A stretch of DNA of 54,549 nucleotides from an uncultured Bacilli bacterium (GCA_951800155.1 CATOJL010000001.1:1-54549); one strand, 5' to 3'. Positions 32,136 through 50,688 are shown, numbered from the stretch's first letter. Notes: generated from the letters alone by a model not told the origin. Translations and numbers: made by a program.

Positions 32136-33248
32136 CTAGATTCTTAAAACTTGCCCTAAACGTAGTGTCGTTCCTGATAAATTATTTTTATTTTGAATAT
32201 TGGTCACCGTTGTTCCAAACTTTCTAGCAATACTATATAAAGTATCCCCAGATTTTACTGTATACGTATTTTCAGTTGGCGTTGATGGAGATGTTGCTGT
32301 AGTTGGTACTTTTAACACCTGCCCTAAACTTAAAAGATTTGATGTCAAATTATTAATTTTCATTAATTCCTGTACGGTTGTATTATACTCTCTTGCAATC
32401 GCATATAGATTATCTCCTTTTGTTACATAATAATTTTTATAGGATGGCACAGGAGTTGGCTGATTTCCTGTTGGTATAATTAACTTCTGACCTACAGATA
32501 AATTATTATTGGTTAAGTTGTTGGCATTAATTAAATCTGCCACTGACAAATTGTAAGTATTTGCTATTTTGTATAATGTATCCCCAGATTTTACAATATA
32601 TTCGTTGGTTATAATATCCTCATCTTTTTTCTCTGGCAATTTAATTTGTTGCCCTACTGATAATGTTGTAGAAGTTAGATTATTCAAATTCATTAATTCT
32701 GCAATAGTTGTATTAAATTTATTTGCAATCGCATATAGGCTATCCCCAGATTTTACTGTATATATTCCTGCATCTTCCTGCTCTTTCTCTATAGGAATAA
32801 TGAGTCTTTGCCCTACCGTTAATGTATTACTTGTTAGATTGTTGACTTTCTTTATTTCATCAACTGTTACACCGTATTTACGTGCTATACTATATAGTGA
32901 ATCTCCTTTTTGCACTGTATGTACTCCTTCTATATCCTCATTATATGTAACTCCAATATAATCACTTACCCCACGTACTACGGCATCTACATAATCTCGC
33001 CAATTATTTTTTAATTGGCTTACATCATCACTTGTACTATCTAAAAAACCATATTCGACAATAATTGGTTCTGTTATTCCTGTATTTCTATGTATAAAAT
33101 AATAATCTTTCGACGTATCACTAGGAAGCCTTCGCTGGTATGCTTTTCTAACATTTTGACCAGCTAGTCGAAGTTGTTCAAGCACATTGTTCGCCAATGT
33201 CCCCTTATTTCTTAATGCGTAAATTACTTCTGCACCATCGCCACCTCC
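32136..33248 (-). pseudogene. N-acetylmuramoyl-L-alanine amidase (Amidase_3 + 5 LysM), 3' segment of a split gene
   Basis: ...GGGDGAEVIYALRNKGTLANNVLEQL...ITEPIIVEYGFLDS is the C-terminal half of Amidase_3, followed by five LysM repeats (YTVKSGDSLYAIA...). The only start is an RBS-less TTG, and the frame stays open upstream to the att core. Confidence 0.85.
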
Positions 33249-33336
33249 GGAAGTATCCTTGTTGTGGTTAAATAAAATATTAAAGTAGATTTACCCTTGT
33301 ACCACATATTCATACTTTGTGGAACAAAAGTAAATA

Positions 33337-35019
33337 CTACTTCTTAGCACCTGCTTTGCCTTTCTTACCATATGGATTTCTTGGTGCAGTGGTTTCTTTA
33401 TATTGAAACTCTGAATCAGGAATAATTCCATACTTAAATTTAATTGTGATCAATCGATTCTCATCTATCTCTATCTTATCAATCAAAGATAACAAGAGTT
33501 CTCTCTTAGGTTTATTCAAATCCAAGAGCTTCTTTATCTGTTCTGTATAATCCGGAATTATACTTAGATTCTTCTTTTGTTCTTGTACACCTTCTTTAAT
33601 AGCATCAATTTCTATATTAATTCTATTTAATTCAGATTCATGAGGTTTTATCATTTCTATATAAGAAGAAGCTGATACTATACCATTCATTCTATCTTCA
33701 TATAGACTATTCATGGTTTTTACAATTTGTGCTTTTCTACCTTCTAAGTTTTTGATTTTGATATTGCCATTATCAGTTATAGATTTCTCTCTATTTATAA
33801 TTTCTTGATTTAAGTCCTTAACATCAAACTGCTTTAAATACTTTGATAAAGTAGCTTCAACATGTTTCTTTAATTGTTCCTCCAAATAATTATATGGAAA
33901 GAAATGCGAAGAACATCTTTCTCTTCTAGGATCTCTTGAATACCTATTACAATTAACAGACCAATAATCATGATTTTTCCTATAAGCAATAGTTAATCTA
34001 TTTCCACATTCTTTACAATACAGTAACCCATCAAATAAACGAACTGGTCTCTTTGTTGTTCTGCAAATTCTATTATTTGATTTCTTTCTTTCTTGTATTA
34101 ATGCAAAAGTATCTTTAGAAACTAGAGGTTCATGAGTATCTTCAACAACAACCCATAAACTTTCATCTAAAGTTATTTTCTTCTTAGATTTATAGCTTAC
34201 CTTAGCTTGAGTATGTTGAACCATATCTCCTGTATAAATCCTATTATTAAGAATCTTCTTAACTGATGATATATTCCAATCATCTCTGAAAACAAGTCTA
34301 GTTGAATATTTAGTCTGCTTATAACCACTAGGTGTTACATATCCCTTATCATTAAGAATTGTTGTGATTTCTGACACTCCAATTCCCTGTTCTGCCATTC
34401 TAAATATTTCCTTAACAATAGGTGCAGTTTCTGGGTTAGGTATTAAATGACCTTTATCTTCTGGATCTCGCATATATCCAAAACAAGGTGCACTACCTAT
34501 AAATTTACCACTGCTTCTCTTATTGTTAAGAACATTTCTAATCTTGATAGAATTTTGCTTACTATAATAATCATTACAAGCAACAATAAATGTAGATGAG
34601 TCATTACTTGCTTGATTCTTAAAGCTATCATAACCATCTAATATAGAAACGAATCTTACTTGATTTTCAGGAAAGAAATTTTCCATGTAATATCCGGTCA
34701 TTACATGATCTCTACCCAATCTTGATAGATCTTTCACAATTACCATATTAATTTTCTTCTTTTTAATATCTTCAATCAATCTCTTGAATTGAGGTCTATC
34801 AAAATCAGTTCCAGAATATCCATCATCCACATAATCATCAACAATGGTATAATTATTAAATTTGTTTAAATAATTAACATTGATATAATCAGTGACTACA
34901 GATCTTTGATTTATAACACTTTCACTTTCAGCTTCATACTTCTTGTCTTTATCTTCTTGAGATAGCCTTATATATATACCAATATAAAATTGGACATCCA
35001 ACATGTAATTGTTAAACAT
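33337..35019 (-). CDS. Large serine recombinase (TndX/TnpX-like), rec1
   Basis: IYIRLSQED...ESESVINQR...DDGYSGTDFDRPQFKRLI...VIVKDLSRLGRDHV...VRFVSILDGYDS is the resolvase catalytic domain. It also has a recombinase domain, a Cys-rich zinc ribbon (CKECGN...C..C) and a coiled-coil tail. RBS aaggagg. Confidence 0.9.
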   Translation of the reverse strand: MFNNYMLDVQFYIGIYIRLSQEDKDKKYEAESESVINQRSVVTDYINVNYLNKFNNYTIVDDYVDDGYSGTDFDRPQFKRLIEDIKKKKINMVIVKDLSRLGRDHVMTGYYMENFFPENQVRFVSILDGYDSFKNQASNDSSTFIVACNDYYSKQNSIKIRNVLNNKRSSGKFIGSAPCFGYMRDPEDKGHLIPNPETAPIVKEIFRMAEQGIGVSEITTILNDKGYVTPSGYKQTKYSTRLVFRDDWNISSVKKILNNRIYTGDMVQHTQAKVSYKSKKKITLDESLWVVVEDTHEPLVSKDTFALIQERKKSNNRICRTTKRPVRLFDGLLYCKECGNRLTIAYRKNHDYWSVNCNRYSRDPRRERCSSHFFPYNYLEEQLKKHVEATLSKYLKQFDVKDLNQEIINREKSITDNGNIKIKNLEGRKAQIVKTMNSLYEDRMNGIVSASSYIEMIKPHESELNRINIEIDAIKEGVQEQKKNLSIIPDYTEQIKKLLDLNKPKRELLLSLIDKIEIDENRLITIKFKYGIIPDSEFQYKETTAPRNPYGKKGKAGAKK

Positions 35020-35096
35020 TACTCCTCCTTCTCAATTACATATCACTCATATAGACTATTAAATAATAACGTTTATTCAGAAATAAAGAAACCATT

Positions 35097-35189
35097 TTAG
35101 GTTGAATTATCCCCTTTCATATTATTTAATTCTTCTAATAAGTATGAAAGTATTATTTCTTTTAATTTTTCTATATTATCTGGACTCAT
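35097..35189 (-). CDS. 30-aa ORF immediately upstream of rec1 (possible directionality factor; speculative)
   Basis: Below the track cutoff. ATG at 35189 follows aaggaaagagg. Translation MSPDNIEKLKEIILSYLLEELNNMKGDNST. Confidence 0.2.
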   Translation of the reverse strand: MSPDNIEKLKEIILSYLLEELNNMKGDNST

Positions 35190-35257
35190 TTTTAAACCTC
35201 TTTCCTTAAATCTTATTCATCTCTCAAACCTATAATGAACTTATTTAAATTTAGAAA

Positions 35258-36127
35258 TTAATCTGATTCATCAATTATTTCTAAATTCTCACCTTTTTTT
35301 CTATCTATTAACCTATATTCACTAGATTCAATAGGAGAACCAAAATAATCATTATAATTATTAACTAATACCAGTTCAGCATTTTTTACAAATGTATTAA
35401 TTTTTCTTTCATCAAATCTACTATCATAATAGAAAACCTTAGGTCTATTCAAATTGTTGCTTCTACTCATATTTCTCTTACCAGGAAAAATTACATCATC
35501 AAAATATTTCACCATATAGTAAATTTTTTTTCTAAAATCAATGTAATCCTTTATCTCAGAAGCTAGTGAAAAACCATAATCCCAGTTAGTTACGTTATAT
35601 TGATTTTCATTATTAGTGTCAGCTTTCTTAAAAATCAAATCGTCAATACTAAGTGAAGTTAGAAGATGATAATGCAACTTTTTCATCCCTTTATGACCTC
35701 TTTCAAGAACTTTTATAAAACTGAAACTCGGATGTTCCATCTTGATTTGTTTAACCCACGAACGATAAGCATTTGTCACACCATCAAAATCGTCAATTTC
35801 TGAAAATGTTAAAGTTACAAAAGTCTTTAATATATACTCATTTGAAAAAGCCCATCTTACATACTTATCTTTCATATTTTTAGTATCATATGAATAGACT
35901 TTTATAACTTCTCCAGTATGATCATCATATCTCCTGACATATCCTATACCTTTATATCTCGTGACTACCACATATCTTCCGCTTAAAATTACTCTAGTGT
36001 CGTATTGTCTGTAAAACATCTTTTCCAATTCTTCAATTGTTCTTATTCTTCCTGTTTCAGTTGCATAACCATTTGATAATCTTTTAAGCATACTATCATA
36101 ATATTTATACATATCATATTTCTGCAT
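35258..36127 (-). CDS. Rolling-circle replication initiator (HUH endonuclease Rep)
   Basis: Three ordered motifs: FVTLTF (motif I), LHYHLLT (HUH) and IYYMVKYF (YxxKY), spaced about 45 and about 50 aa apart. RBS ggagg. Confidence 0.55.
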   Translation of the reverse strand: MQKYDMYKYYDSMLKRLSNGYATETGRIRTIEELEKMFYRQYDTRVILSGRYVVVTRYKGIGYVRRYDDHTGEVIKVYSYDTKNMKDKYVRWAFSNEYILKTFVTLTFSEIDDFDGVTNAYRSWVKQIKMEHPSFSFIKVLERGHKGMKKLHYHLLTSLSIDDLIFKKADTNNENQYNVTNWDYGFSLASEIKDYIDFRKKIYYMVKYFDDVIFPGKRNMSRSNNLNRPKVFYYDSRFDERKINTFVKNAELVLVNNYNDYFGSPIESSEYRLIDRKKGENLEIIDESD

Positions 36128-36396
36128 ACGCTACCTCCAAAGTTCATATGATATTAGTTGTACAATGATTAGTAAGTATAGTTGTATGATGTAAAGGGAG
36201 TTCAGTATAATATTCTAGAATTATAATAAATATCTTCTCTATCTATAATAGTTTAAGAAAATGTATTAATCATCTAAAGAAAACTAACTCCCTTACTCTC
36301 TCTATCAAAAGGGAATTATAATTAAAAACATACAACAACATTAAAGTCATATATCTCCTCAACAAACAGTTAAGGTACTAATATCAAGTAATATAA

Positions 36397-37029
36397 TTAT
36401 TCGCTCCAATCAGTGCAATTATTAATAGACTCACTATAATTACAAGATGACGATAAATCATACAAGTAATCAATTGTGACTTCTTCTGGCAATTTTGCAG
36501 TTAAGATTCGATCATCCAAAGTCATAATAGATTCTGTATCTACACAAAATATAACAGTGTGATGATGATATAAGCTTCTTAGCACATCGTAAACTTCCAC
36601 AAAATTTCTAGAAATTTGTGATAAAGAATCAATTACGATTACATCAAATCTCTTTTCATTTTGTAGATCCTCAAGAAGTTCTCTTAACTCTTCACGCTTG
36701 TCTAAAAAATCATGATTTGAGGTTTTATCTTTATACATACTATCTGCTACATCGACAAAATCTACATAGCTGGCAACTAATTTCCAGTGTGTATTATTTC
36801 CAATATAATTTCTTAAACGTTCAATACGTTTATTCAATTTTTCTTGCTGTGGTTGGATTTCATCTTCTGGGAAGTAACTCCACCCAAAATATTTTCCGCT
36901 TACATAACTTGCCACTCTTAATGGAAAGCATTTAAGTGCTTCCACATTACTTACATATCGTGATAGATCTATGCATCCATTTCCTTGAGTTTGTTTAACT
37001 TGATTTCTTAATATTTCTTTTCCTAACAT
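36397..37029 (-). CDS. Resolvase-catalytic-domain-like protein lacking the catalytic Ser/Arg (degenerate)
   Basis: RVASYVSGKY stands where Y-x-R-x-S is expected. RFDVIVIDSLSQISRNFVEVYDVLRSL...TVIFCVDTES mirrors the D-R-L-x-R block. ATG 37029 has the perfect RBS gaaggag. No HTH is obvious. Confidence 0.4.
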   Translation of the reverse strand: MLGKEILRNQVKQTQGNGCIDLSRYVSNVEALKCFPLRVASYVSGKYFGWSYFPEDEIQPQQEKLNKRIERLRNYIGNNTHWKLVASYVDFVDVADSMYKDKTSNHDFLDKREELRELLEDLQNEKRFDVIVIDSLSQISRNFVEVYDVLRSLYHHHTVIFCVDTESIMTLDDRILTAKLPEEVTIDYLYDLSSSCNYSESINNCTDWSE

Positions 37030-37284
37030 TCTATTTTCTCCTTCTCTATTTATTAAAAACTTGTTAATCACCATTTCCCCCTTCAATTTCATTTGCCCTC
37101 ATTCATATAAACCACGTCCTTCCTTTGCCCTGAGTTGCCAATGTGCAAAAAAAATGCAAAAGCCCCCAAGGAGAACTTCCCTAAGGGAACCGCCTACAGA
37201 GTTATACGAGAACAAAATGGACACTTTCACAAAAATGTTAATTTTTTTTAAAAAAGTGCTAAAAATTTTAAAAAAAGTATTAAA

Positions 37285-37313
37285 ATCTAAAAAAGAAGAG
37301 TTTTAAAAACTCT
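37285..37313 (-). terminator. Rho-independent terminator after the resolvase gene
   Basis: Minus strand reads agagttt-ttaa-aaactct followed by tcttttttagatttt. Confidence 0.55.
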
Positions 37314-37360
37314 CCCTTGGTTTAACTTAGGCAAATATCAAAAAATTAAAAAACATCCCA

Positions 37361-37957
37361 TTACCCATTTAAAATCTTTAAATATCTATATCCAGTATTT
37401 CTACTAATTTGACATAATCGACAGAATTCGACAAAATTTATTCTATATTCAATAAATTCTATAAAATACTTAGCAACATCCGGATTCTTATTGTATATTC
37501 GTTCTTTAGTCAATTTAGGTTGCCCACCAATGCGTCCCTCGGATCTAGCAGCAGCCAATCCCTCGTTAACACTTTCAACTATCATCAACCTCATCACTTC
37601 CGCCACCATCGATAACATCAATAGTTGTCCCTGCATTAAAGCTGACAACGTACCACGACAATCAACTTCAAAATCTCCCAGGACGAACTTTATTTTCTTC
37701 TCCTTCGCAAACTCAATTAATGACATAAAGTGTTTTAACGAACGTGTAAGACGATCAATTGAAGAACAATAAACAGTATCTCCCTCTTTAACAATGCTTA
37801 GTAGTCTATCAAGTTCAGGTCTCTTATCTTTCGAACCAGAGATATACTCCTTAAACATATTCTCCAGTTTAACTCCATGTTGTTCTCCAAACTTGATTTG
37901 CCTCAATAAGTTCTGCCTTTCTTCGTTGGTGCTACAACGTGCATATAAATAATCCAT
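37361..37957 (-). CDS. Small serine recombinase (resolvase/invertase) with C-terminal HTH
   Basis: YARCSTNEE (catalytic Ser), SIDRLTRS, GRIGGQPK hinge, C-terminal HTH FCRLCQISRNTGYRYLK. Confidence 0.85.
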   Translation of the reverse strand: MDYLYARCSTNEERQNLLRQIKFGEQHGVKLENMFKEYISGSKDKRPELDRLLSIVKEGDTVYCSSIDRLTRSLKHFMSLIEFAKEKKIKFVLGDFEVDCRGTLSALMQGQLLMLSMVAEVMRLMIVESVNEGLAAARSEGRIGGQPKLTKERIYNKNPDVAKYFIEFIEYRINFVEFCRLCQISRNTGYRYLKILNG

Positions 37958-37981
37958 AAAATCATTCCTCCCAAATAGTCA

Positions 37982-38088
37982 CCAAGAAACCTATTTGAAG
38001 TAAGTGGAACATTTTAGCACTAAATTATGCCTCTAAAACCAATAAATTGGTGGTAAAATAGAGTGCCCACTTAACAAATGTTTCTTGG
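37982..38088. repeat. Imperfect 22-26-bp inverted repeat pair flanking a 59-bp spacer, upstream of the resolvase gene
   Basis: 37982-38007 is ccaagaaacctatttgaagtaagtgg. The reverse complement of 38067-38088 is ccaagaaacatttgttaagtgg. The spacer contains an extended -10-like TGgTAAAAT (38051-38059). Confidence 0.6.
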
Positions 38089-38195
38089 AACACCTTTTTA
38101 ATACCGTGCTATAGAAGCACCTGTCAATATCTTTAATGCAATTTCAAATTGTTAGCAAAATGAAAAATGAAAAAAATGAAAAAAAATAAAAAAAA

Positions 38196-38222
38196 TGAAA
38201 AAAAGAATAGTCACTGCTATTC
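38196..38222 (-). terminator. Rho-independent terminator of the 41736->38234 operon
   Basis: Minus strand reads gaatag-cagtga-ctattc followed by a long T-rich tract, 12 nt after the stop. Confidence 0.55.
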
Positions 38223-38233
38223 CTTATTGAATA

Positions 38234-39307
38234 TTACATATAGTTGTTTTCATCTAAAGCAAACAAGCACTCACTAACTGCTTGACCTCTACCAAATATG
38301 AATAGAATCTTTGAGAAGATATCTATAAACATATCCTCGCAATTATGTTCTTTCATAACACCTACATACTCATCCCATTTCGTAGGATCTTTCTTAGCTC
38401 GACCTTTACGAATAAAATCAAACATTTCTAAGGCCATATCTTTATCAATAGAGTGATCTAGCAGATACTCCAGTATATCTTCACGAGTAGCTATAAGATT
38501 ATCAAGAGTGATTTTTCCATCAGCTACTAAAGCATCTTGATTATAACTCCATACATCAGTACCATGTCCTATGCTTTTTACTTTGACATAATCCTTTATG
38601 GTCTTAGGTTGCAATATCTCCGCAATTTTTTTCTCAAGCTCATTAGTAAGTACATTTTCTAAACCTTTAACCTTATACTCACTTATAGGTTGCTTTTCAT
38701 CAATCCTAATGGTTAAAAATTCATCTTTATATTTTCTATAATCATCAACTGTCTCGAGTATTAGCTCTTCATTTAATCTAAGTGAAATATCTTTAAGCAT
38801 AGGGCAATTTCTACTATCCTTATACCCCAAAAATGGAATTAGTAAATAATGGTTATCTTCAAAAGCATTTACTTCTTCTATATCTTCCTTTTCGTGTGTA
38901 CCATAAACAAATCTAACTTTATCACAATAATTACTACCTACATATATTAGAAAATCAAGTGGAATAGCATGAATTAAATCCATACAAATATTGCTTTCGT
39001 TAAATAATTCATAAGGTAAATTATACTTTATAGGATCTACATCAGTTATACCTAATACATGTAATAACAACAAATTATTAATTGTACCTCTAAAGTGATA
39101 TGAAATAGGAAAATCAGATCTATATTCCTTATATTTGTAAAATATCTCAATAAGAAATAACAAACCCTTATCATATAGAAGATCAAGTTCTTTGTTACAT
39201 CTTCTAAATAAATCTAAGTTCTTATATTTAAGAAAGAATTTTTCCTTAAGTTCATCAAACAAATATATCTTTGCATTCATATTTAAATGCTCATACTTCT
39301 CTAGCAT
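38234..39307 (-). CDS. Miniaturised PolC-type DNA polymerase III alpha-like protein with degenerate active site
   Basis: Two blocks match PolC as I recall it: FRGTINNLLLLHVLGITDVDPI..LPYELF (palm entry) and KSIGHGTDVW...ATREDILEYLL...MFDFIRKGRAKK...FIFGRGQAVSE (thumb/fingers). Only 357 aa. The catalytic PDIDL position reads CMDLI. Confidence 0.5.
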   Translation of the reverse strand: MLEKYEHLNMNAKIYLFDELKEKFFLKYKNLDLFRRCNKELDLLYDKGLLFLIEIFYKYKEYRSDFPISYHFRGTINNLLLLHVLGITDVDPIKYNLPYELFNESNICMDLIHAIPLDFLIYVGSNYCDKVRFVYGTHEKEDIEEVNAFEDNHYLLIPFLGYKDSRNCPMLKDISLRLNEELILETVDDYRKYKDEFLTIRIDEKQPISEYKVKGLENVLTNELEKKIAEILQPKTIKDYVKVKSIGHGTDVWSYNQDALVADGKITLDNLIATREDILEYLLDHSIDKDMALEMFDFIRKGRAKKDPTKWDEYVGVMKEHNCEDMFIDIFSKILFIFGRGQAVSECLFALDENNYM

Positions 39308-39332
39308 ATCCTTAGTCTTTGTATTTTACCTT

Positions 39333-40307: not shown

Positions 40308-40405
40308 ATCAATAACCTCCTTAATTATACTTAAACTATACCATAAATAATCACTAATTGTATCACATAGTTATAGAATAGCAATTGCAACTCTCGTAGA
40401 AAACA

Positions 40406-40876: not shown

Positions 40877-40903
40877 AAATTTACTTCCTTTCTTACACTC
40901 AAA

Positions 40904-41431: not shown

Positions 41432-41484
41432 TAAATCACCATTTTTTCCTTTCTTTATAAAACAATAAAAATATTCATTACCTA

Positions 41485-41736: not shown

Positions 41737-41884
41737 AAAAATTTAACTCCTTTCTATTCAATGATAAGTTTTTCTTCTAAAGAAAGTATTATCACATTCA
41801 TTATACCACAAAAGTAACATTTGAAGATACCATCATTTCAAAACATACATGAGAAAATAATATTATGTAAGGTGGAGGTGTAAT

Positions 41885-42414: not shown

Positions 42415-42499
42415 TCAGATCACCATCCACTTGTATATTAGCATGTTTAAAAAAATTACACAGTCTATATTAAGACAATGTAATAAGGATTGTCAAACA

Positions 42500-43234: not shown

Positions 43235-43389
43235 TTAATCACCACCATTCGCTTATTGTTTTATAACGTAAGTTGGTGATAATTACAGCACTTAATTAAA
43301 AAAAATCATATAAACTATTAAGAATCTCTCTTAAATATGTTATAATATAAATTGTTAGAGACACAAAATTATTTGTTAAGGAGGATAAT

Positions 43390-44097
43390 ATGGAAGTAAG
43401 AGAATTTGAAAATATTATGAAAAATGATTTGAAAGAAGTTTATAATGAAATCCTAAAAAACCACAATTATAAATTACCAATTAGTGCTAAATCTAGAAGT
43501 GGTGCAGAAATAAGTGATTATTTAGAAGATGGATTTGTTGAATATTTTCAAACTCATTCACATGATAGAATTTACAATCCAAAAGGTTCCCCAAAAGGAC
43601 ATACTAAAAATCCATATGATTTTTGTTTTAATTATAAAAATCCGGAATTTAATTTTGATGATTTAATTTGGGGCGATATAAAAGCAACAAAAAATTCATA
43701 CCAAGATAGTAATCCTGACTTGGGAACTCCAACTAAAATGATAAAATTCATGAAAGATGGTCACTTTTATTTAGTTTTTGTGTTTGTAGAATATGATGCT
43801 TCAGAAGATGGTGGTACTATCTTTATCCCCTATGAAGATGGAGAATATGTTCATGTAATGTTTTTAAAAGATATTAGTAGCACAGTGAGAATTAATCCAA
43901 AACCTCAATTCCAAGTTAATATTCATGCTCCAGAAGAATATAGAACAAAAGAAGAGTTTTTAGATTTATTCCTAAAAAAATATAAAGAATCAAATGAGCG
44001 AATTATTAAAATTCAAATGAGAAAAAAAGAAGAACTAGATAAAATATTCGAAGAATTAAAAAAAATACAATTAAGTAAAAAAGATGATGAAGAATAA
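43390..44097 (+). CDS. Putative Type II restriction endonuclease (PD-(D/E)XK-like)
   Basis: RBS aaggagg. NPYDF ... WGDIKATK fits PD...(D/E)xK. Convergent with, and 10 bp from, the NPPY methyltransferase gene. Confidence 0.45.
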   Translation: MEVREFENIMKNDLKEVYNEILKNHNYKLPISAKSRSGAEISDYLEDGFVEYFQTHSHDRIYNPKGSPKGHTKNPYDFCFNYKNPEFNFDDLIWGDIKATKNSYQDSNPDLGTPTKMIKFMKDGHFYLVFVFVEYDASEDGGTIFIPYEDGEYVHVMFLKDISSTVRINPKPQFQVNIHAPEEYRTKEEFLDLFLKKYKESNERIIKIQMRKKEELDKIFEELKKIQLSKKDDEE

Positions 44098-44119
44098 TTA
44101 TTTTTCATCATCTTTTTTT
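44083..44119. terminator. Bidirectional terminator shared by the convergent R and M genes
   Basis: 9-bp stem gatgatgaa/ttcatcatc with T-runs on both strands. It overlaps both stop codons. Confidence 0.65.
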
Positions 44120-46099
44120 AAAAAAACTGTTTATATAATTTATTTCTTCTTTGTTAATTCCATATATTTTATATATAGTTTCGTTTAACATATTATAATA
44201 TTCATCATAACAATTATCATTTATTAATAAAGAATCAACTATATTAATTATATTTTGATATTCAGAATTATTTACTGCTATTTTTATTCGTTTCAAATCC
44301 AAAGTCTTTATCTGTGGAGTCTTTCCATTACCTCTTCTTATGATATTATTAATTCGTGAATAAAAAGTAATCAAATCCGAATTTAATATTCCACAAACAT
44401 ATTTCAGCATAAAAATGCTTTCTTTACTATTATTTTTATCACTTAGTATATATAAACTATTATTAGCTGCATATGGTTTATCAGTATAAGTAGCTATTAT
44501 ATCATTAGCGCTTTGTCTAATAAATAATTTAGGCGATAGATAAGCTTCTTTATCTCCTAAAGTAACTCTTTTCTTATTTTTAACACCAATTTTTTCTAAT
44601 TCTTCTTTAAACTGATTTGAAATATCTAGCTGTAACTGATAATTATATTCAATATATTTGCTAGTATTAAGTAATCCAAATTTTTTTGATAAACCTTTTG
44701 AGCCCTCTAAAAATGGAAAAACTAGGTTATTTGTTTTCTTATTTTTATTAACTATAAACTCTTCAGTTTTTCCTGTTAAAGCACAACAGGTTCTTAAACA
44801 TTTATTAGGATAATATTTTTCAAGTGAATCAAATTTATTCACTTTATCATTTATATTTCTCTCTATATCAGAAAGAGGAACATATATCTTATATTGATTA
44901 TTATCATTATACCATATTGACTGATCAATACTAATCTTGGTATTTTCTTTATAATCATGCCAAATAGTTAACCCATGATTTTTGCTTTTAACTAATGAAA
45001 TAACCATTTGTCCACTTGCAACATTTTCAAACTCGTTCATATTAGTAGTTATAGATTCAATATAACAATTTTCTAGTAAATACTTTCTAATGTCAATAAA
45101 CGCCGTTTCAAAAAAGGAAATATCTAATATAAAAATCAATTTGCCATTTTCTTTTAAAGACTTAATACCATTTTCCAAAAAAAACATTATCATATTAAAC
45201 TTATTGTTACCTTTTTTATTTATAACAAAATCAAAGGTATTAAATTGCTTTCTCTTTTCTTCAGTCATGTTTCTACTTCTTTTGCCATACATTGTAACAT
45301 ATGGCGGATTACTAATAACTAAATCAAATTTATTTACATTTTTATAATTGCAAAAATCTATATTACTAATATTTAATCTTGGCAATATAAAACTATTATT
45401 AGTATCATAAACAATTTTTATATAATCAATAGTAGACACTAAAATATTGGCTTCGGTTATTTTACAGGCAAATGAGTCTATATCGTTTGTATAGAAATTT
45501 GTAAATATATCCAATAAAGTTTTTTCAATCTCCTTAACATTATTAACATCTACCATATCTAACTTTCTTCTTATAATTTCAATTAAGAACACTCCAGATC
45601 CAGAACTTGGCTCTAATATTTTTTGATTATTATAATTATCTATTAAATTTACCATATAATTTACTACATCTTTAGAATGTGTATAGAATTGTCCATAATC
45701 TTTTCGATCTTTAGTGTTCAAAGAAGATTCATAAATATATCCTAAAATATCATCATCCCTATTATTTTTTGAAAAAAAATCTATGATTGCTAACGCATTT
45801 TCAGAATCATAATCAATGTCATCATTTAAAATGTATGGATAAACTTTTCTTAGAATGTCATCACCATTGTTTTTTTGTGTCCTCAATTTAGAGATTAAAA
45901 AACAATTTATAAGCAATATAAATTGCTCTTTTTTGTCTCGTATATTAATTTCTTGAGAAAAAGCTCTAATGTATTCATCTAATAAATTTTGAAATCTCAT
46001 GTCTATCACTTCTTTCTCAATTCTAATTTTCCCCATATAGTACGATAAAAATATATGATTATTATACCATAAATAGGTTGATCTTACAATTTTGTTCAA
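44108..46099 (-). CDS. N6-adenine DNA methyltransferase (Eco57I/TaqI-like gamma class) with C-terminal target-recognition domain
   Basis: QFYTHSKDVVNYMV, EPSSGSGVFL (motif I), LVISNPPYV (motif IV) and a TaqI_C-like LKYVCGILNSDLITFY. The real start is probably ATG 46036 or 46000. Confidence 0.8.
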   Translation of the reverse strand: MNKIVRSTYLWYNNHIFLSYYMGKIRIEKEVIDMRFQNLLDEYIRAFSQEINIRDKKEQFILLINCFLISKLRTQKNNGDDILRKVYPYILNDDIDYDSENALAIIDFFSKNNRDDDILGYIYESSLNTKDRKDYGQFYTHSKDVVNYMVNLIDNYNNQKILEPSSGSGVFLIEIIRRKLDMVDVNNVKEIEKTLLDIFTNFYTNDIDSFACKITEANILVSTIDYIKIVYDTNNSFILPRLNISNIDFCNYKNVNKFDLVISNPPYVTMYGKRSRNMTEEKRKQFNTFDFVINKKGNNKFNMIMFFLENGIKSLKENGKLIFILDISFFETAFIDIRKYLLENCYIESITTNMNEFENVASGQMVISLVKSKNHGLTIWHDYKENTKISIDQSIWYNDNNQYKIYVPLSDIERNINDKVNKFDSLEKYYPNKCLRTCCALTGKTEEFIVNKNKKTNNLVFPFLEGSKGLSKKFGLLNTSKYIEYNYQLQLDISNQFKEELEKIGVKNKKRVTLGDKEAYLSPKLFIRQSANDIIATYTDKPYAANNSLYILSDKNNSKESIFMLKYVCGILNSDLITFYSRINNIIRRGNGKTPQIKTLDLKRIKIAVNNSEYQNIINIVDSLLINDNCYDEYYNMLNETIYKIYGINKEEINYINSFFKKR

Positions 46100-46209
46100 A
46101 CTTTTGTCTTATTTTTCTTCATTATTGGCATTATAAATTATATTATAAAAAAAGAAAAACTATTTACTTCAAGTTTATATAGATAAAAACGAAGTATAAT
46201 TAGTTTGCA

Positions 46210-46644
46210 TTACTGACACATAGTAATTAATTTATCTACTGTATCATCCATACCATCCGCTTGAATCATTGCATCTAGTTTTCCAGTTTCACGCAACTCT
46301 TTAATTAATGCTATTACAGGATCTAGCAACTCAGATGGATGCTTAATATTATCTCCTTTATATACCAGTTCTACGACTTTAAAGAATAAGTCCTGATCGT
46401 TACTAATAAACTTAGTATCTCCATTGAATTTAATCATATATTTTGACTCAAAAACATCACTTAAATTTGGATTTTTATACTCGTTCATTAGTTTGTTAAG
46501 AGTTTCTACAGTTGCTTTCTTCAAAACAAACAATTTATGCTTATTATTGTCAAATACATACCCATCTTCACATATTGTAAGAGTATAAATTCCATCATCT
46601 ATCTCTTTTATAAGCATAATTAACCAATTCTCACATTTAGTCAT
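46210..46644 (-). CDS. Hypothetical protein (144 aa)
   Basis: ORF only, lying between the two methyltransferase genes. Confidence 0.45.
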   Translation of the reverse strand: MTKCENWLIMLIKEIDDGIYTLTICEDGYVFDNNKHKLFVLKKATVETLNKLMNEYKNPNLSDVFESKYMIKFNGDTKFISNDQDLFFKVVELVYKGDNIKHPSELLDPVIALIKELRETGKLDAMIQADGMDDTVDKLITMCQ

Positions 46645-46879
46645 ACATATCCTTTCAAATTATCGCTTATTTGCCAGTTTTTTGCCACTTGTAGCAATTA
46701 TTCTAGGCACCATAATATAAATCCCACACTTGAACAAGTTCAAGCTTTTTTAACACTCTTTTGCAAAATATCTAAAATCTAAATATTATCTATGTTGAAT
46801 ATCTTATCTAAATATACGACATATACGACGAAAATTTCTAAAAGCCACTCAAAAAAGACCTTTTTATACCTAGCAAGAT

Positions 46880-46907
46880 TTATCAATAATAGTTTTAATG
46901 ATATAAT
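46880..46907 (+). promoter_or_regulatory. Sigma-A-type promoter with extended -10 for the HsdM-S gene
   Basis: ttatca (46880-46885), 16-nt spacer, TGaTATAAT (-10 at 46902-46907), about 40 nt upstream of ATG 46946. A direct repeat atatacgac x2 lies at about 46813-46830. Confidence 0.5.
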
Positions 46908-46945
46908 AGAGATAACAACAAGTCCTTTAGAAAGGAGTTAATTGC

Positions 46946-49063
46946 ATGAATCACGATAAACAAAATTTATACAGCACATTATGGAAGATTATTGATAAAC
47001 TTCAAGGTGCTACAGATGCATGGTCATTCAAATATTACCCAATGATACTATTATTCTATCGTTTCTTATCTACTAACAACATAAACTATGTAAAAAAAAC
47101 ATTTTCAATTGACTATATAAAACTTTCTGATGATGAAAGTTTGTCAATAAAACAGAAAATAATCGATGATAATGACTTCTTCATATTACCTAGCAAATTA
47201 TTTCAGAATGTCGTTAAAAGCGATATAAAAAGCCAGTATCTAAATGTCATACTAGGGAGCATATTTGATGAAATAGAAGCATCATCTAAGTATAAGTTAA
47301 CAGGTATATTTAGGGAATTTGATGCAAAAAGTAACACTTTAGGGGAAAACGACTCTGATAGAAGCAATAAACTTTCACAACTACTACAATGTATTAAAAA
47401 GCTTAAGCAAGATGACATAAACGAAACAGAATATGATACATTTGGAGACATATATGAGTTCTTAATAAACAACTATGCCAAGACATCTGGAAGACTTGGA
47501 GGTGTATATTTTACTCCTAATACTCTTAGTTCTTTACTAAGTAAAATAGCTAATTCATACGTTGAGAAGCCCCAAACTATATACGATCCAACTTGTGGAA
47601 CAGGTTCACTACTCTTAGAATATATTAAACAAAATCCTAACGTTGAAGTATATGGACAAGAAATATCTCCTAGCTTATACAATATTTGTAAGATGAATAT
47701 GATTCTTCATGACGTTAAGGACTACACTATAACGTTAGGGGATACTTTAGCAAAACCTATGTCTATTCACGAGAACAAATTCGATATAATACTATCAAAT
47801 CCACCATTTAGAACAAAGTGGGATGTCGATTCAGTAAATAGTAAAGATAAACGTTTCAACGAATTACCTGTTCTTCCACCAAATGATAAAGCTGACTATG
47901 CTTTCGTTCTACATTCTCTCTACACATTAAATAAAAATGGTGTAGCAGTTATTGTTGTATCTCCAGGAATATTAAATAGAGGAAACGAAGAACAAAATAT
48001 TAGAAAATATCTTGTTGAAAAAAATCTAATTGATACTATTGTAATGCTTCCTAATGACTTATTCTATGGCACTTCAATCAATGTATGTATAATGATACTA
48101 AGAAAAAACAAAGAAGATAACAAAGTCCTATTTATAGACGTAGCATCAGAATATAATAAAAACAAAAAAAAGAAAGAATTAACTAGTACTAACATAAATA
48201 ATATCTTAACTCTTATTAAAGAAAGAAAAACGAACAACGATAAGTCTTATCTAGCAGATCCTAATGAAATAATCAATAATTCATATAATCTAGCTGTAAC
48301 ATCATATGTCAAAACTAAATGGTTACCCCCATTAGAATATGAAGAAAACATTGAAGAGCCATTAGAGGATATAATAGCCCAAAAACAAAAAATCTTAAGT
48401 GAATTATTCACTCAAACTAAAGATATTGATTCATTCATCAATGATAACGCGAAGTATGTTAAAAGATTTATCACACTAAATGATATAGCTATTTCAATAA
48501 GAACAGGATTAAATCCACGTAATTACTTTACTCTGATAAATGAAGGCCCTCACTATCTTATAACATCAAAAGAATTGTCAGATCAATCAATTGTAATAAC
48601 ATCTCAAACAAAAAAGGTAGATGAAAAAGCAAAGAAACGTATTAATGGCTATTCTCATTTTGAGGTTGGAGACATACTATTCTCCTTATCAGAATCACAA
48701 GTTAAAACAGCATTCGTTGAAGAAAAACATAAAGACTATGACATAAATGAATCAATCTATATCATTAAACCCAACCTTGAGTTAATTAATCCAAAATATC
48801 TAATGTTCCTACTCGAATCTAACTACCTAAGTAATCAAATCAATAAAAACATATCCTATGGAAAAATAAAAAAGATAGGAATTAAAAAATTCAGATTATT
48901 ACCTATTCCAGATTTTCCAATGGATATACAAAATCAAATTGGCGAGAAATTAAATAAGTTAAATTCAATTAAGACTAAGCTAGAAACATTACATACAAAA
49001 GAAGAACAACTAATAATAAAAAAGTATCAATATTATAAAAATAAACCATTTGAATTAAATTAA
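46946..49063 (+). CDS. Type I-like DNA methyltransferase: HsdM fused to a single HsdS target-recognition domain
   Basis: HsdM_N-like N-terminus (LWKIIDKLQGATDAW), GVYFTP, DPTCGTGSLLL (motif I), ILSNPPF (motif IV). The C-terminal ~230 aa have the HsdS half-subunit pattern (LINPKYLMFLLESNYLSNQI...LPIPDFPMDIQNQIGEKL). No HsdR in the window. Confidence 0.8.
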   Translation: MNHDKQNLYSTLWKIIDKLQGATDAWSFKYYPMILLFYRFLSTNNINYVKKTFSIDYIKLSDDESLSIKQKIIDDNDFFILPSKLFQNVVKSDIKSQYLNVILGSIFDEIEASSKYKLTGIFREFDAKSNTLGENDSDRSNKLSQLLQCIKKLKQDDINETEYDTFGDIYEFLINNYAKTSGRLGGVYFTPNTLSSLLSKIANSYVEKPQTIYDPTCGTGSLLLEYIKQNPNVEVYGQEISPSLYNICKMNMILHDVKDYTITLGDTLAKPMSIHENKFDIILSNPPFRTKWDVDSVNSKDKRFNELPVLPPNDKADYAFVLHSLYTLNKNGVAVIVVSPGILNRGNEEQNIRKYLVEKNLIDTIVMLPNDLFYGTSINVCIMILRKNKEDNKVLFIDVASEYNKNKKKKELTSTNINNILTLIKERKTNNDKSYLADPNEIINNSYNLAVTSYVKTKWLPPLEYEENIEEPLEDIIAQKQKILSELFTQTKDIDSFINDNAKYVKRFITLNDIAISIRTGLNPRNYFTLINEGPHYLITSKELSDQSIVITSQTKKVDEKAKKRINGYSHFEVGDILFSLSESQVKTAFVEEKHKDYDINESIYIIKPNLELINPKYLMFLLESNYLSNQINKNISYGKIKKIGIKKFRLLPIPDFPMDIQNQIGEKLNKLNSIKTKLETLHTKEEQLIIKKYQYYKNKPFELN

Positions 49064-49102
49064 AAGCAGTAGAAGAGCATCTCAGTTCTCCTACTGCTTT
49101 TT
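49063..49102 (+). terminator. Rho-independent terminator after the HsdM-S gene
   Basis: 10-bp stem aaagcagtag/ctactgcttt followed by tt, at the stop codon. Confidence 0.7.
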
Positions 49103-49116
49103 ACCTTCTTAATGTA

Positions 49117-49953
49117 TCAAAGTATTCCACCTTCATGCTCAATCATAACAAGTTTACCCATAAGTAAACGTATTGTTCTAGCAACATCATTATAGTACGT
49201 AATAGAATCAGTTGTTTGCTTTAATAAACAATATAAATCACTAATTACAGATTCAAGATTTTGTTTGAAAATATCAGGAAACAACTTACCGTCAATAAAA
49301 TCATCAGGATAATCTATTTCCCAACAATAATATCTTCCTAAATATTGAATAATATCGTACACTGCTTTATCTGACCTGTTATTTTTTATAGAATCAGTGA
49401 CATATTCATTTTGCATCCCTACTTCTCCATCAGTAGGAACCACATTAGGCAAGTTACTATCTTCAATACATTTTCTTACAAATCTACTATATAATAAATA
49501 AGACTTGTATTTTGCGTTGAATTCAGTCCACATATGAAATCCATAAGCATCACTTCTATTAATCATATCATCGTAGTTTCCTTGAAAATATTCATTACAA
49601 TAATTATAAAAATCAATTGCATGTGTTAATTCATGAAATAAAGTACACATAAATTGCCAATTATTAGTTCTATATTCTTCTATTAGTTTCTTTGAAATAA
49701 ATATTTCAATCTCATCATCTATTGAATTAGGTATACATGTTGTTCCATTGTAATCAGTTTCATCTGCTATATATTTCCTATTGGTCTTCTTCATAAAAGC
49801 TTCGGTTGATTCTTTCATGTTATCAACTATTTGAATCTTGCACTTCAAACTTTCTGGTATTTTATACTCTTGGGAATACATAGATATAAATGAGTTAATA
49901 AATGTATCAATATTTTCCATGATATTTCGTTCTTCTGTCATAAAACCACCCAT
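49117..49953 (-). CDS. Putative HExxH zinc metallopeptidase
   Basis: The single motif CTLFHELTHAIDF (HExxH) sits in a helical protein. No other match recognised. Confidence 0.45.
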   Translation of the reverse strand: MGGFMTEERNIMENIDTFINSFISMYSQEYKIPESLKCKIQIVDNMKESTEAFMKKTNRKYIADETDYNGTTCIPNSIDDEIEIFISKKLIEEYRTNNWQFMCTLFHELTHAIDFYNYCNEYFQGNYDDMINRSDAYGFHMWTEFNAKYKSYLLYSRFVRKCIEDSNLPNVVPTDGEVGMQNEYVTDSIKNNRSDKAVYDIIQYLGRYYCWEIDYPDDFIDGKLFPDIFKQNLESVISDLYCLLKQTTDSITYYNDVARTIRLLMGKLVMIEHEGGIL

Positions 49954-50002
49954 TAAATTATACAGAAATATGCCTATTTAAGCAATATATCAACCATAAA
50001 AG

Positions 50003-50284
50003 CTACTTCTTAAAATTAACATCATAAAAATAATAAACTTTCTTACATTTGTTACAGATAATACCTATAAAATCTAAACCTTTAATCTTAAAACCATCAC
50101 CTTTTAATACAAGAATATTTTTGCTACTGCACTCTGGACAATAAACATGTTTACCCCAAGATACTTGTTGGCTAAACATCTTATTAGATATCTCATATCC
50201 ATCTCTTGAATGTACATTAAGTTTTTTAAGATATTCATCAGATATTTCATCAAATGATATACATTTAACAGTATGCTTCATCAT
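50003..50284 (-). CDS. Small zinc-ribbon protein
   Basis: Strong RBS aaggaggg. CPECSS...(23 aa)...CNKCKK forms two CxxC pairs. Confidence 0.5.
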   Translation of the reverse strand: MMKHTVKCISFDEISDEYLKKLNVHSRDGYEISNKMFSQQVSWGKHVYCPECSSKNILVLKGDGFKIKGLDFIGIICNKCKKVYYFYDVNFKK

Positions 50285-50403
50285 CTACTCCCTCCTTATT
50301 TTCACTATCAAATATCATAATAGGGTATTTGTTAGTGAAATCAAAAAAATAATCTATATAGGCGATATGAATTATAATCTATTTTCCCATATTTACAAGG
50401 GTT

Positions 50404-50688
50404 CTAATTTAACATATGCAAGAGTACCTCCGCACCTCCTGCATTTATGTGATTAGATATTACAATAACATCCGAATTATTTCCATAGGGCGCCAATATA
50501 CGTTCAACCCTTTCTGTTGGAGTCAAAGTTTCATCTGTAGTACGTGTTATACTTACAGGTACCCCCAACTCATCAAATTTGTCATACATATATTTTGAAA
50601 TATCCAAGGTTAAATTCTTTTCTACAATACCATTTCCACTTGCTCCACCATCAGTTCCACCATGGCTTGTATCGGTTTTCCCCAAAAA
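50404..50688 (-). pseudogene. Amidase_3 N-terminal half: middle segment of the split amidase gene
   Basis: GKTDTSHGGTDGGASGNGIVEKNLTLDISKYM...VSITRTTDETLTPTERV...DVIVISNHINAGG is colinear with the first half of the Amidase_3 domain. TAG/TGA lie in frame just upstream, and there is no RBS. Confidence 0.85.

What the first reader, a model, noticed from the sequence alone, without database searches (positions are those of the whole stretch)
32136..50688. LysM-amidase gene split by a 17.2-kb serine-recombinase element; excision at a 7-bp core would rebuild the ORF in frame
- **C-terminal piece.** ORF 32136..33197 (minus) is only the C-terminal half of an Amidase_3 domain plus five LysM repeats. 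Its frame stays open upstream through ...FNHNKDTSGGGDGAEVIYALRNKGT.
- **N-terminal piece.** The missing half (GKTDTSHGGTDGGASGNGIVEKNL...DVIVISNHINAGG|AEVLLHMLN*) lies 17 kb away on the same strand at 50404..50688.
- **Shared core.** Both breakpoints contain the identical heptamer GGAGGTG (plus-strand cacctcc at 33242-33248 and 50433-50439) in the same codon phase. Joining there gives ...VISNHINAGGGDGAEVIYALRNKGTLANN..., the expected H-x-N...G-AE-V-Y block of Amidase_3.
- **attP-like arms.** The element-side arms around the core form an imperfect inverted repeat (caaggatacttcc / ggaggtactcttg, 10/13). This is what a serine-integrase attP should look like. The rec1 gene ends 88 bp from the core.
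- **Inference.** The host carries spoIIID, spoIID, spoIIR and spoIIQ-like genes. The arrangement therefore resembles skin/SPbeta-type intervening elements that are excised to reconstitute a gene, here in a peptidoglycan amidase.
Basis: partly seen in the sequence, partly recalled or inferred. Interest (0 to 1): 0.78.

Follow-up and report, generated by a model that had tools for sequence, protein, structure and literature searches.

The report
Sporulation amidase gene split by mobile elements
A cell-wall amidase gene that looks like a late-sporulation gene is cut in this gut bacterium by two separate mobile DNA elements, each carrying its own serine recombinase; this adds a new target gene to the known skin/SPbeta class, but here the gene's start is missing, so removing the 17-kb element alone would not repair it.

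Summary
GGAGGTG lies at both breakpoints. The in-silico join is in frame and gives one colinear Amidase_3 match plus five LysM repeats. Uninterrupted alleles have exactly the predicted junction.

The 17,191-bp insert is a non-phage integrative element with restriction-modification cargo and a large serine recombinase (rec1). The four rec1 relatives checked at 68-90% identity, and one at 61%, sit at this same site in other hosts with different cargo. The attP symmetry centre and the variant junctions put the crossover at GG within A-GG-T.

Two things are new.
- The target gene carries a conserved sigmaK-type promoter: 49 of 55 distinct upstream regions have CATA at a fixed distance from the start codon, and 45 of those have C at -17. 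It has no signal peptide. It resembles the mother-cell-lysis amidase CwlC.
A second recombinase element (rec2) cuts the gene at codon 9, a site also used in at least six other species.

In this genome that second element is truncated. The promoter, ribosome-binding site and first eight codons are absent from the window and from 6 kb beyond it.

The anatomy is skin/SPbeta-like. Programmed excision is unproven: no sporulation promoter, no circular junction and no empty-site product was found.

The parts
32136..33248 (-). Amidase piece 3: codons about 84 to the stop. It holds the C-terminal half of Amidase_3 and five LysM repeats, and includes the attL core.
   Evidence: 98% aa identical to the uninterrupted L085 allele
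33242..33248 (-). attL core GGAGGTG. The inferred crossover dinucleotide is GG at 33245-33244.
   Evidence: The variant junctions of L094 (CGCAGGTgg) and L005 (ATCAGGTgg) share only AGGT, and the attP symmetry centre falls on GG.
33242..50432 (-). Element 1, 17,191 bp including one core copy. It is a non-phage integrative element.
33337..35019 (-). rec1, a large serine recombinase of 560 aa (Resolvase + Recombinase + Zn_ribbon_recom; YIRLS catalytic motif).
   Evidence: relatives sit at the same site
35097..35189 (-). Conserved 30-aa ORF (MSPDNIEKLKEIILSYLLEELNNMKGDNST) directly upstream of rec1. It is a candidate directionality factor or regulator; this is inferred only.
35258..36127 (-). Rep-like protein (REP_ORF2-G2P).
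   Evidence: the same module is seen in L092/L093/L099
36397..37957 (-). Two small serine recombinase (invertase-like) genes: 36397..37092 and 37361..37957.
43390..49063 (.). Restriction-modification cargo: SwaI-like endonuclease (43390..44097 +), type II N6 methyltransferase (44108..46099 -), and a type I-like HsdM-HsdS fusion (46946..49063 +).
50433..50439 (-). attR core GGAGGTG (GG at 50436-50435).
50433..50664 (-). Amidase piece 2: the His9 codon through the codons at the site-1 core. This is the middle of the gene, not its start.
50665..54400 (-). Element 2 remnant, about 3.7 kb. It is inserted just 5' of the His codon of GHGG, its left part is missing, and it abuts the hisS terminator.
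50720..52324 (-). rec2, a large serine recombinase of 534 aa (with DUF4368; 31% identical to rec1).
52391..54234 (.). Element 2 module: 48-aa ORF (52391..52537 -), HTH_36 replication-initiator-like gene (52605..53147 -), 86-aa ORF (53225..53485 -), XRE repressor (53641..54234 +).
54240..54400 (-). Conserved ~130-nt hairpin-rich block shared with the site-2 elements of L020 and L054. It is a candidate oriT.
54401..54549 (-). hisS 3' end and terminator. This flank is not the ancestral neighbour of the amidase.
31051..31479 (+). SleB/CwlJ-type Hydrolase_2 gene, the conserved divergent neighbour of the amidase.

Best explanation
**What the gene is.** It is a chromosomal gene for a cytoplasmically made peptidoglycan amidase (Amidase_3 plus four or five LysM repeats, no signal peptide). 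Across the lineage it sits behind a sigmaK-type promoter. It therefore resembles the late mother-cell amidases CwlC and CwlH.

**Why it is hit.** Two stretches that encode invariant motifs serve as attachment sites for two unrelated families of large-serine-recombinase elements. Site 2 is at the GHGG zinc-ligand histidine codon. Site 1 is at NAGG|GDGAEV.

**What this genome carries.** Both sites are occupied.
- Element 1 (17.2 kb; restriction-modification cargo, Rep, rec1) is complete and is flanked by attL and attR.
- rec1 made it by attP x attB exchange at the GG of A-GG-T.
- The reverse reaction needs rec1 plus a directionality factor. The conserved 30-aa ORF upstream of rec1 is a candidate for that factor. 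The reaction would restore the coding sequence exactly.

**How it compares.** This is the anatomy of skin/SPbeta/gin-type gene-intervening elements.

**Shown.** The insertion, its boundaries, the site specificity of the family, the intact alleles and the promoter motif.

**Inferred.** That excision actually happens, and that it happens in the mother cell.

**Limit in this genome.** Element 2 is a truncated remnant without its left junction, and the gene's promoter and first eight codons are gone from the locus. Excision of element 1 alone cannot give a working gene.
For: - The core, the frame and the colinear Pfam match are confirmed.
- Intact alleles carry the identical junction.
- The four rec1 relatives examined at 68-90% identity, and one at 61%, sit at the same site with different cargo.
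- rec2 relatives at 59-67% identity lie directly 5' of the His codon in L020, L047, L051, L054 and L085; L034 and L004 show the same junction at a contig edge. L054 has both junctions and a stub of 14 codons.
- The promoter: CATA at a fixed distance in 49 of 55 distinct upstream regions, C at -17 in 45 of 49, T at +7 in 48 of 49. The strict motif AC-N16/17-CATAnnnTA occurs in 33 of 55, against 0.27% of random 70-mers.
- The sigmaK consensus, and the role of sigmaK-dependent amidases in mother-cell lysis, are described in PMC3789822.
- Sporulation genes lie in the window.
- dN/dS is 0.04 against L085, and neither piece has a frameshift or internal stop.
Against: - No sigmaE- or sigmaK-type promoter lies upstream of rec1, rec2 or their small ORFs. 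Motif hits inside the elements are at chance level.
- No attP junction in two collections, no joined attB in the one scanned for it, and only the integrated form in the three contigs that carry rec1.
- The elements move horizontally. The same recombinase protein occurs in two host contexts (L092 vs L093; L101 vs L102), and the closest host does not carry the closest rec2. The low dN/dS may therefore only reflect recent insertion.
- The 5' stub is missing here.
Confidence: 0.7

Rival explanations
1. A working developmental switch in this very genome. Both elements are excised in the mother cell late in sporulation. The 5' stub with its promoter lies elsewhere on the chromosome next to the lost left part of element 2, and the full amidase gene is rebuilt there.
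For: The target has a sigmaK-type promoter in related species. Both pieces are free of frameshifts and internal stops, and dN/dS is 0.04. L054 shows a complete two-junction arrangement at site 2 with the promoter retained on the stub. Published intervening elements are almost all in mother-cell genes (PMC6957869).
Against: The stub is absent from the window and from 6 kb beyond it. Homology to the L020 and L054 elements begins immediately after the hisS terminator, as expected for a deletion or rearrangement scar. The hisS flank is not the ancestral neighbour. No sporulation promoter was found on the recombinases.
Confidence: 0.15
2. Plain insertional inactivation. The conserved motif-coding stretches are simply convenient, widely conserved attB sites for integrative or mobilizable elements that carry defence cargo. 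The gene is dispensable, and no programmed excision or regulation is involved.
For: The cargo is restriction-modification here and CBASS-like plus a Mob_Pre relaxase in L054. Horizontal spread is recent. The same species carries different elements at the same site. L087 carries its own copy of the 5' part, so that insertion does not disrupt the gene at all. The gene is apparently already unrepairable in this genome.
Against: Two unrelated recombinase families and a third kind of element converge on one gene that has a mother-cell promoter. That is the pattern seen for experimentally proven intervening elements. The fragments show no decay.
Confidence: 0.35
3. The two amidase fragments are diverged paralogues or an assembly chimera rather than halves of one gene.
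For: The window comes from a metagenome-assembled genome. Some related species carry two amidase copies (L051, L061, L070).
Against: The fragments abut to the base on the sequence of intact alleles. An independent assembly record (L001) is identical over 13,830 bases, and three contigs carry the same arrangement. Downstream synteny is conserved.
Confidence: 0.02

Closest known systems
skin element / SpoIVCA in sigK (Bacillus subtilis, Clostridioides difficile)
   Same: A large serine recombinase gene lies next to one att site, inside the coding sequence of a mother-cell sporulation gene. Precise excision restores the ORF. The element is not a functional phage.
   Different: The target is a sigmaK-regulon-type amidase, not the sigma factor itself. 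Neither sporulation control of the recombinase or directionality factor nor excision has been shown. rec1 has no close annotated relative (33% identity or less in the phage collection).
SPbeta / SprA-SprB in spsM (B. subtilis)
   Same: The layout is attL - small ORF - integrase - attR, set in a late mother-cell gene that is dispensable for growth.
   Different: SPbeta is an active prophage with a proven, sigma-factor-controlled directionality factor (PMC4191935, PMC5499854). Here the element has no phage genes, and the 30-aa ORF is only a candidate.
gin element in gerE (Bacillus cereus) and yin in yabG (Clostridium botulinum)
   Same: gin is a non-prophage intervening element, and yin sits in a sigmaK-dependent gene. 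In both, the attB is conserved in strains that lack the element.
   Different: Those are single insertions whose excision has been demonstrated (PMC5595907, PMC10747680). Here there are two elements in one gene, many host species and no experiment.
Heterocyst nif/fdxN/hupL interruption elements (XisF and others, cyanobacteria)
   Same: These are developmentally excised elements in genes of a terminally differentiated cell. That one gene can carry more than one such element is my recollection and was not checked here.
   Different: The phylum and developmental programme differ. The match to the XisF model is weak (97 bits against a cut-off of 375).
CwlC / CwlH (B. subtilis sigmaK-dependent mother-cell-lysis amidases); CD1898 / CD2184 in C. 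difficile
   Same: An amidase with a wall-binding repeat region and a sigmaK-type promoter, as cited in PMC3789822. That CwlC has an Amidase_3 catalytic domain and lacks a signal peptide is from my own knowledge.
   Different: The wall-binding module here is LysM x4-5. Orthology was not established: the only named amidase model hit was CwlD, far below its cut-off (70 vs 221 bits).
TndX / TnpX transposon-type serine recombinases (Tn5397 / Tn4451)
   Same: rec2 has the DUF4368 tail and about 31% identity to an annotated TndX. The full-length relative element in L054 carries a Mob relaxase.
   Different: rec2 relatives show strict use of one site, the GHGG codon of this gene, in the six or more species seen.

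Membership tests
Sporulation gene-intervening element (skin/SPbeta/vfbin/vrin/gin/yin class) | The element lies inside the coding sequence of a host gene, and the halves are colinear with intact alleles. | tested here: met
Sporulation gene-intervening element (skin/SPbeta/vfbin/vrin/gin/yin class) | The interrupted gene is a mother-cell sporulation gene. | tested here: inconclusive
   A conserved sigmaK-type promoter motif is present in 33-49 of 55 related upstream regions. The protein has no signal peptide, and the lineage has sporulation genes. No expression data exist, and this genome's own promoter is missing.
Sporulation gene-intervening element (skin/SPbeta/vfbin/vrin/gin/yin class) | The element encodes a site-specific recombinase next to an att site. 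| tested here: met
   rec1 lies 88 bp from attL; rec2 lies about 55 bp from the site-2 junction.
Sporulation gene-intervening element (skin/SPbeta/vfbin/vrin/gin/yin class) | Excision rebuilds a complete functional gene. | tested here: not met
   Site 1 rejoins perfectly. The product would still lack the promoter, RBS and codons 1-8, because truncated element 2 occupies site 2 and the stub is not found.
Sporulation gene-intervening element (skin/SPbeta/vfbin/vrin/gin/yin class) | Excision occurs during sporulation under a sporulation sigma factor or a directionality factor. | not testable with these tools
   No sigmaE/sigmaK motif lies upstream of rec1, rec2, p30 or p48. No attP junction was found in two collections and no joined attB in the one scanned for it.
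Large serine recombinase (integrase) family | N-terminal resolvase catalytic domain with the R-x-S motif, plus a Recombinase domain and a zinc ribbon. | tested here: met
   (YIRLSQED in rec1, YCRLSDED in rec2)
Large serine recombinase (integrase) family | An imperfectly palindromic attP around a 2-bp crossover that is shared with attB. | tested here: met
   The arms match 11/14 around GG, and the variant junctions narrow the crossover to AGGT. The 2-bp position is inferred, not measured.
Prophage | Virion structural, packaging or lysis genes. | tested here: not met
   No such Pfam or PHROG hits in element 1 or element 2.
Integrative mobilizable element (for the element 2 family) | Relaxase and oriT in addition to the integrase. 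| tested here: not met
   The full-length relative in L054 has Mob_Pre. The window copy lacks it, being truncated at 54400.
CwlD (cortex muramic-lactam amidase) | Score above the curated cut-off of the NCBIfam equivalog model. | tested here: not met
   70 bits against a cut-off of 221. A separate 220-aa Amidase_3 (cwlD-like) gene lies upstream in relatives.

The most novel reading that the evidence does not exclude
In a large group of uncultured, small-genome gut Bacilli, release or maturation of the spore depends on a sigmaK-controlled amidase gene that is a multi-site landing pad for at least three kinds of mobile elements. Where two are present, two independent recombinases must each excise their element in the mother cell to rebuild the gene. 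This would be a doubly interrupted sporulation gene, analogous to multiply interrupted heterocyst genes. The elements would then control a late sporulation step while being inherited through the untouched forespore genome.
Probability: 0.2. Interest if true: 0.75.

Novelty: new member of a known kind. Interest (0 to 1): 0.55.

Why it matters
Known sporulation genes carrying excisable elements are few: sigK, spoVFB, spoVR, spsM, gerE and yabG. All come from cultured Bacillus or Clostridium relatives. This locus would add several things.

- A new target, a CwlC-like mother-cell amidase.
- A new host lineage, uncultured gut Bacilli with roughly 1.4-Mb genomes.
- Two attachment sites in one gene, each used by its own recombinase family across many species.

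It also yields new pairs of serine recombinase and att site, with a tightly defined crossover. Such pairs are what genome-engineering tools are built from.

Finally, it gives testable candidates for very small directionality factors (30 and 48 aa).

The caution is that this particular genome appears to hold a broken copy.

Tried and rejected
- **Excision products.** The exact attP junction (GGATACTTCCGGAGGTGCGGAGGTACTC) was scanned in JGI metagenome contigs and IMG/VR, and the exact joined attB in JGI metagenome contigs. All gave 0 hits. The organism may simply be absent from those collections.
- **Alternative contexts of rec1.** Only the integrated form was found.
- **Missing 5' stub.** Searches used a protein motif, fuzzy DNA probes from L011 and L002, and the promoter of L011. 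Nothing was found in the window or in L001.
- **Missing P' arm of element 2.** A search with the reverse complement of the P arm found nothing.
- **Sporulation promoters inside the elements.** Scans for sigmaK, sigmaE, sigmaG and sigmaF motifs gave only chance-level hits, none upstream of the recombinases or their small ORFs.
- **Rfam.** Nothing was found in either element, and the conserved 130-nt block has no family.
- **Co-divergence of elements and hosts**, as evidence for long-term maintenance of split alleles. Rejected: the closest host (L085, 98% amidase identity) has a rec2 relative of only 61% identity, whereas L047 (65% amidase) has one of 67%. Identical recombinases also occur in different hosts.
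- **The other end of rec1-family elements in other hosts.** 10-kb flanks did not reach it.
- **Prophage reading.** Rejected, because no structural genes were found.
- **Phage-endolysin reading of the amidase.** Rejected, because htrA-amidase-Hydrolase_2 synteny holds in 20 or more species.

Full report
**1. The observation**

On the minus strand, GGAGGTG lies at 33248..33242 and at 50439..50433. Joining 50688..50433 to 33241..32136 gives a 1362-nt open frame of 453 aa. Pfam matches Amidase_3 as one stretch, aa 6-178 against profile positions 4-173 of 174 (E 1.3e-20), and finds five LysM repeats. The ORF at 33337..35019(-) is a large serine recombinase with Resolvase, Recombinase and Zn_ribbon_recom domains (rec1). 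It ends 88 bp from the core. The element-side arms, CAAGGATACTTCCG and CGGAGGTACTCTTG, form an 11/14 inverted repeat around the core.

**2. Uninterrupted alleles**

A search with the joined amidase domain found thousands of homologues. The closest full-length ones are 85-87% identical and start MTKIVIDPGHGG or MAKIVIDPGHGG, with no signal peptide.

A scan of species-representative genomes returned 80 loci, mostly labelled uncultured Bacilli, "Tenericutes" or CAG bins from gut samples. One complete genome among them is 1.46 Mb.

- L085, a mouse-gut MAG, is 98% identical in protein and 84-86% in DNA. It is continuous across the breakpoint and reads ...HINAGGGDGAEVIYALRNKGT..., exactly the in-silico product.
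- At the DNA level, L085 and L011 read aatcacataaatgcAGGAGGTgg(a/c)gatggtgcagaagt.

The breakpoints are therefore defined to the base by independent sequences. The two fragments are halves of one gene.

**3. Element 1 and its recombinase family**

The insert is 17,191 bp. It carries:
- rec1;
- a conserved 30-aa ORF just upstream of rec1 (35189..35097);
- a Rep-like protein (REP_ORF2-G2P);
- two small invertase-like serine recombinases;
- zinc-ribbon membrane proteins;
- a SwaI-like endonuclease with a type II methyltransferase;
- a type I-like HsdM-HsdS fusion.

It has no virion, packaging or lysis genes. It is not a prophage.

rec1 has many relatives at 60-90% identity. All four examined at 68-90% identity lie immediately 5' of a truncated Amidase_3-LysM ORF followed by the Hydrolase_2 gene. 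Their cargo differs: Rep plus resolvase, a RecA-like set, or a DUF5906 primase-like gene. A 61%-identical relative occupies the same site in strains whose amidase C-piece is 97-98% identical to the window's (L005-L010). A 62% relative (L097) shows no amidase within 4 kb downstream, so specificity at that distance is open.

The same recombinase protein occurs in two different host contexts (L092 vs L093; L101 vs L102). The elements are therefore moving between hosts now.

The junctions read:
- window: cttcCGGAGGTgg
- L092: cctcCGGAGGTgg
- L094: cttcCGCAGGTgg
- L005: actcATCAGGTgg

Only AGGT is common to all. The symmetry centre of the reconstructed attP falls on the GG of A-GG-T, which is the inferred 2-bp crossover (33245-33244 and 50436-50435).

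**4. What the target gene is**

In relatives, the gene sits in a conserved chromosomal neighbourhood: rplM-rpsI-...-cwlD-like-...-htrA-amidase, followed by a divergent SleB/CwlJ-type Hydrolase_2 gene, a pilin-like gene, whiA, rplI and dnaB. It is a core gene, not a phage lysin.

I extracted the region upstream of the start codon from every intact allele, which gave 55 distinct sequences.
- 49 have CATA at a fixed distance, 12-22 nt from the start codon.
- Among those 49: C at -17 in 45, A at +5 in 42, T at +7 in 48 and A at +8 in 42.
- The strict pattern AC-N16/17-CATAnnnTA occurs in 33 of 55. It occurs in 0.27% of random 70-mers from the same loci. Among upstream regions of all ORFs of at least 150 aa it occurs in 39 of 906, and most of those 39 appear to be the amidase genes themselves.

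This is the sigmaK consensus. SigmaE and sigmaK share the -10 element and differ at -35, ATA for sigmaE and AC for sigmaK (PMC3789822). The same paper notes that mother-cell lysis in B. subtilis uses the sigmaK-controlled amidases CwlC and CwlH, and that two sigmaK-dependent amidases are the candidates in C. difficile.

The window itself encodes SpoIID (339 bits, above its cut-off). It also encodes SpoIIID, SpoIIR, a SpoIIQ-like protein and a YtaF-like protein, all with good E-values but below their cut-offs.

The amidase is not CwlD (70 bits against a cut-off of 221). Its nearest solved relatives are Amidase_3 domains such as C. difficile Cwp6.

My reading is a CwlC-like late mother-cell amidase. 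This rests on motif and architecture, not on expression data.

**5.

The window's "N-terminal piece" reads (F)LGKTDTSHGG where intact proteins read M-x-KIVIDPGHGG. Directly upstream is a second large serine recombinase, rec2 (50720..52324, 534 aa). It is 31% identical to rec1, has a DUF4368 tail, and is about 31% identical to an annotated TndX.

Host sequence starts at the His codon (50664). The element-side arm tttggggaaaaccgatac(aa/tt)g is nearly the same in another species (L004).

rec2 relatives at 59-67% identity lie directly 5' of the same CAY GGN GG in L020, L047, L051, L054 and L085. L034 and L004 show the same junction at a contig edge. Two further contigs begin within a codon of this point, and L039 has a different junction there. 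Several database proteins start with junction-derived residues, MGKTDTCHGG or MGLTGASHGG.

L054 shows what a complete element at this site looks like:
- a stub with a sigmaK-type promoter and 14 codons (MALKGVVIDAGHGG|IG*);
- a CBASS-like nucleotidyltransferase and 2TM effector;
- a Mob_Pre relaxase;
- an XRE repressor, an 86-aa ORF, an HTH_36 protein, a 48-aa ORF and the recombinase;
- then the rest of the gene.

**6. In this genome element 2 is truncated and the gene start is gone**

Homology of the window to the L020 and L054 elements begins at 54400. That is immediately after the hisS terminator (54401-54444), inside what is an internal region of the L054 element.

No stub, no promoter and no P' arm could be found in the window or in the 6 kb beyond it that L001 provides. 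hisS is never the upstream neighbour in other species; htrA is, in about 20 of them. L001, from a public MAG, is identical to the window over 13,830 bases, so this is not a one-off assembly error.

Removing element 1 would therefore give an ORF that still begins with element-2 codons, with a TTG start lacking a recognisable ribosome-binding site, and without the first beta-strand of the fold. Unless the stub survives elsewhere in the chromosome, the gene is not repairable here.

**7. How it most likely works, and what is not shown**

Shown by the sequences:
- site-specific integration by two recombinase families into two motif-coding stretches of one conserved gene;
- a complete attL/attR pair for element 1;
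- perfect restoration of the junction if the two recombine.

Inferred:
- that rec1 excises the element;
- that this needs a directionality factor, for which the conserved 30-aa ORF (48 aa for rec2) is a positional candidate, as in the attL-rdf-int-attR unit of SPbeta (PMC6957869);
- that excision happens in the mother cell.

Against programmed excision:
- no sigmaE/K/F/G-type promoter lies upstream of the recombinases or small ORFs, and hits elsewhere are at the chance level of about three;
- no attP junction in two collections, no joined attB in the one scanned for it, and only integrated copies in the assemblies that carry rec1.

dN/dS against L085 is 0.04 for both pieces (dS 0.83), and there are no frameshifts. 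Because the elements turn over horizontally, this may only mean that the insertions are young.

**8. Comparison with what is known**

Published sporulation-gene interruptions are in sigK, spoVFB, spoVR, spsM, gerE and yabG. Full-text searches found no amidase target.

The anatomy matches that class, and gin most closely, because gin is also not a prophage. Two defining features are not met or not testable here: rebuilding a complete gene in this genome, and sporulation-timed excision. I therefore file it as "works like" rather than as a proven member.

What differs from published cases is the new target gene, the uncultured host lineage, two occupied sites in one gene, and a third kind of insertion at site 1. 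That third insertion (L087) duplicates the promoter and the first 86 codons, so the gene stays whole.

**9. Verdict**

This is a new member of a known kind. It has good comparative support as a recurrent attachment site in a likely sigmaK-dependent amidase gene. The copy in this window looks broken at its 5' end, and excision remains to be demonstrated.

Noticed in passing
window 54240-54400 (minus strand); L020:6165-6320; L054:5812-5950: A ~130-nt block is conserved between site-2 elements of three species. It has hairpins (TATTGG.ATA.CCAATA; CCAAGGGA..TCCCTTTGG) and two compensatory pairs. It has no Rfam family. In L054 it lies between the Mob_Pre relaxase/226-aa ORF and the XRE gene, so it may be an oriT. 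The L085 contig ends at the expected position of this block, so it may be repeated in that genome.
   Followed up: partly
L087:280-639 and 9883-10242: A 9.6-kb insertion at the same site-1 core is bounded by a 360-bp direct repeat (97.5% identical) of the amidase promoter plus its first 86 codons. The downstream gene copy is therefore intact. No large serine recombinase was detected; a SWIM-domain 553-aa ORF sits at the element end.
   Followed up: partly
L054:870-10000: A complete site-2 element carries CBASS-like defence cargo (DncV-like nucleotidyltransferase and SUa-2TM effector) and a Mob_Pre relaxase. This element family therefore looks like integrative mobilizable defence islands.
   Followed up: partly
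window 35097-35189 (-) and 52391-52537 (-): Very small ORFs (30 aa and 48 aa) are conserved immediately upstream of rec1 relatives and rec2 relatives respectively. They are candidate directionality factors or regulators and have no family match.
   Followed up: partly
window 50404-50439 (-): The element-side arm after the core encodes ...GG|AEVLL. This mimics the host ...GG|GDGAEV with the GCnGAnGTA motif 6 nt closer to the crossover. It may reflect how rec1 reads attP and attB half-sites.
   Followed up: no
window 38234-39307 (-); L101:260-1333: A 357-aa ORF with weak hits to the DNA polymerase III alpha NTPase and finger domains is conserved in rec1-family elements of different hosts. Its function is unknown.
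   Followed up: no
window 54401-54549 and L001:1-6110: The flank upstream of element 2 (hisS, an S66 peptidase, a tRNA-synt_1b gene) is not the ancestral neighbour of the amidase, which is htrA/cwlD/rpsI in about 20 species. This points to a chromosomal rearrangement or deletion with one end inside element 2.
   Followed up: partly
window 16568-16597 (-): Rfam match to the L31-Firmicutes ribosomal protein leader (34.7 bits, just above the gathering score).
   Followed up: no
window 4988-5341 (-): A short ORF with a weak match to the Rpn family of recombination-promoting nuclease / putative transposase. It is probably a fragment.
   Followed up: no
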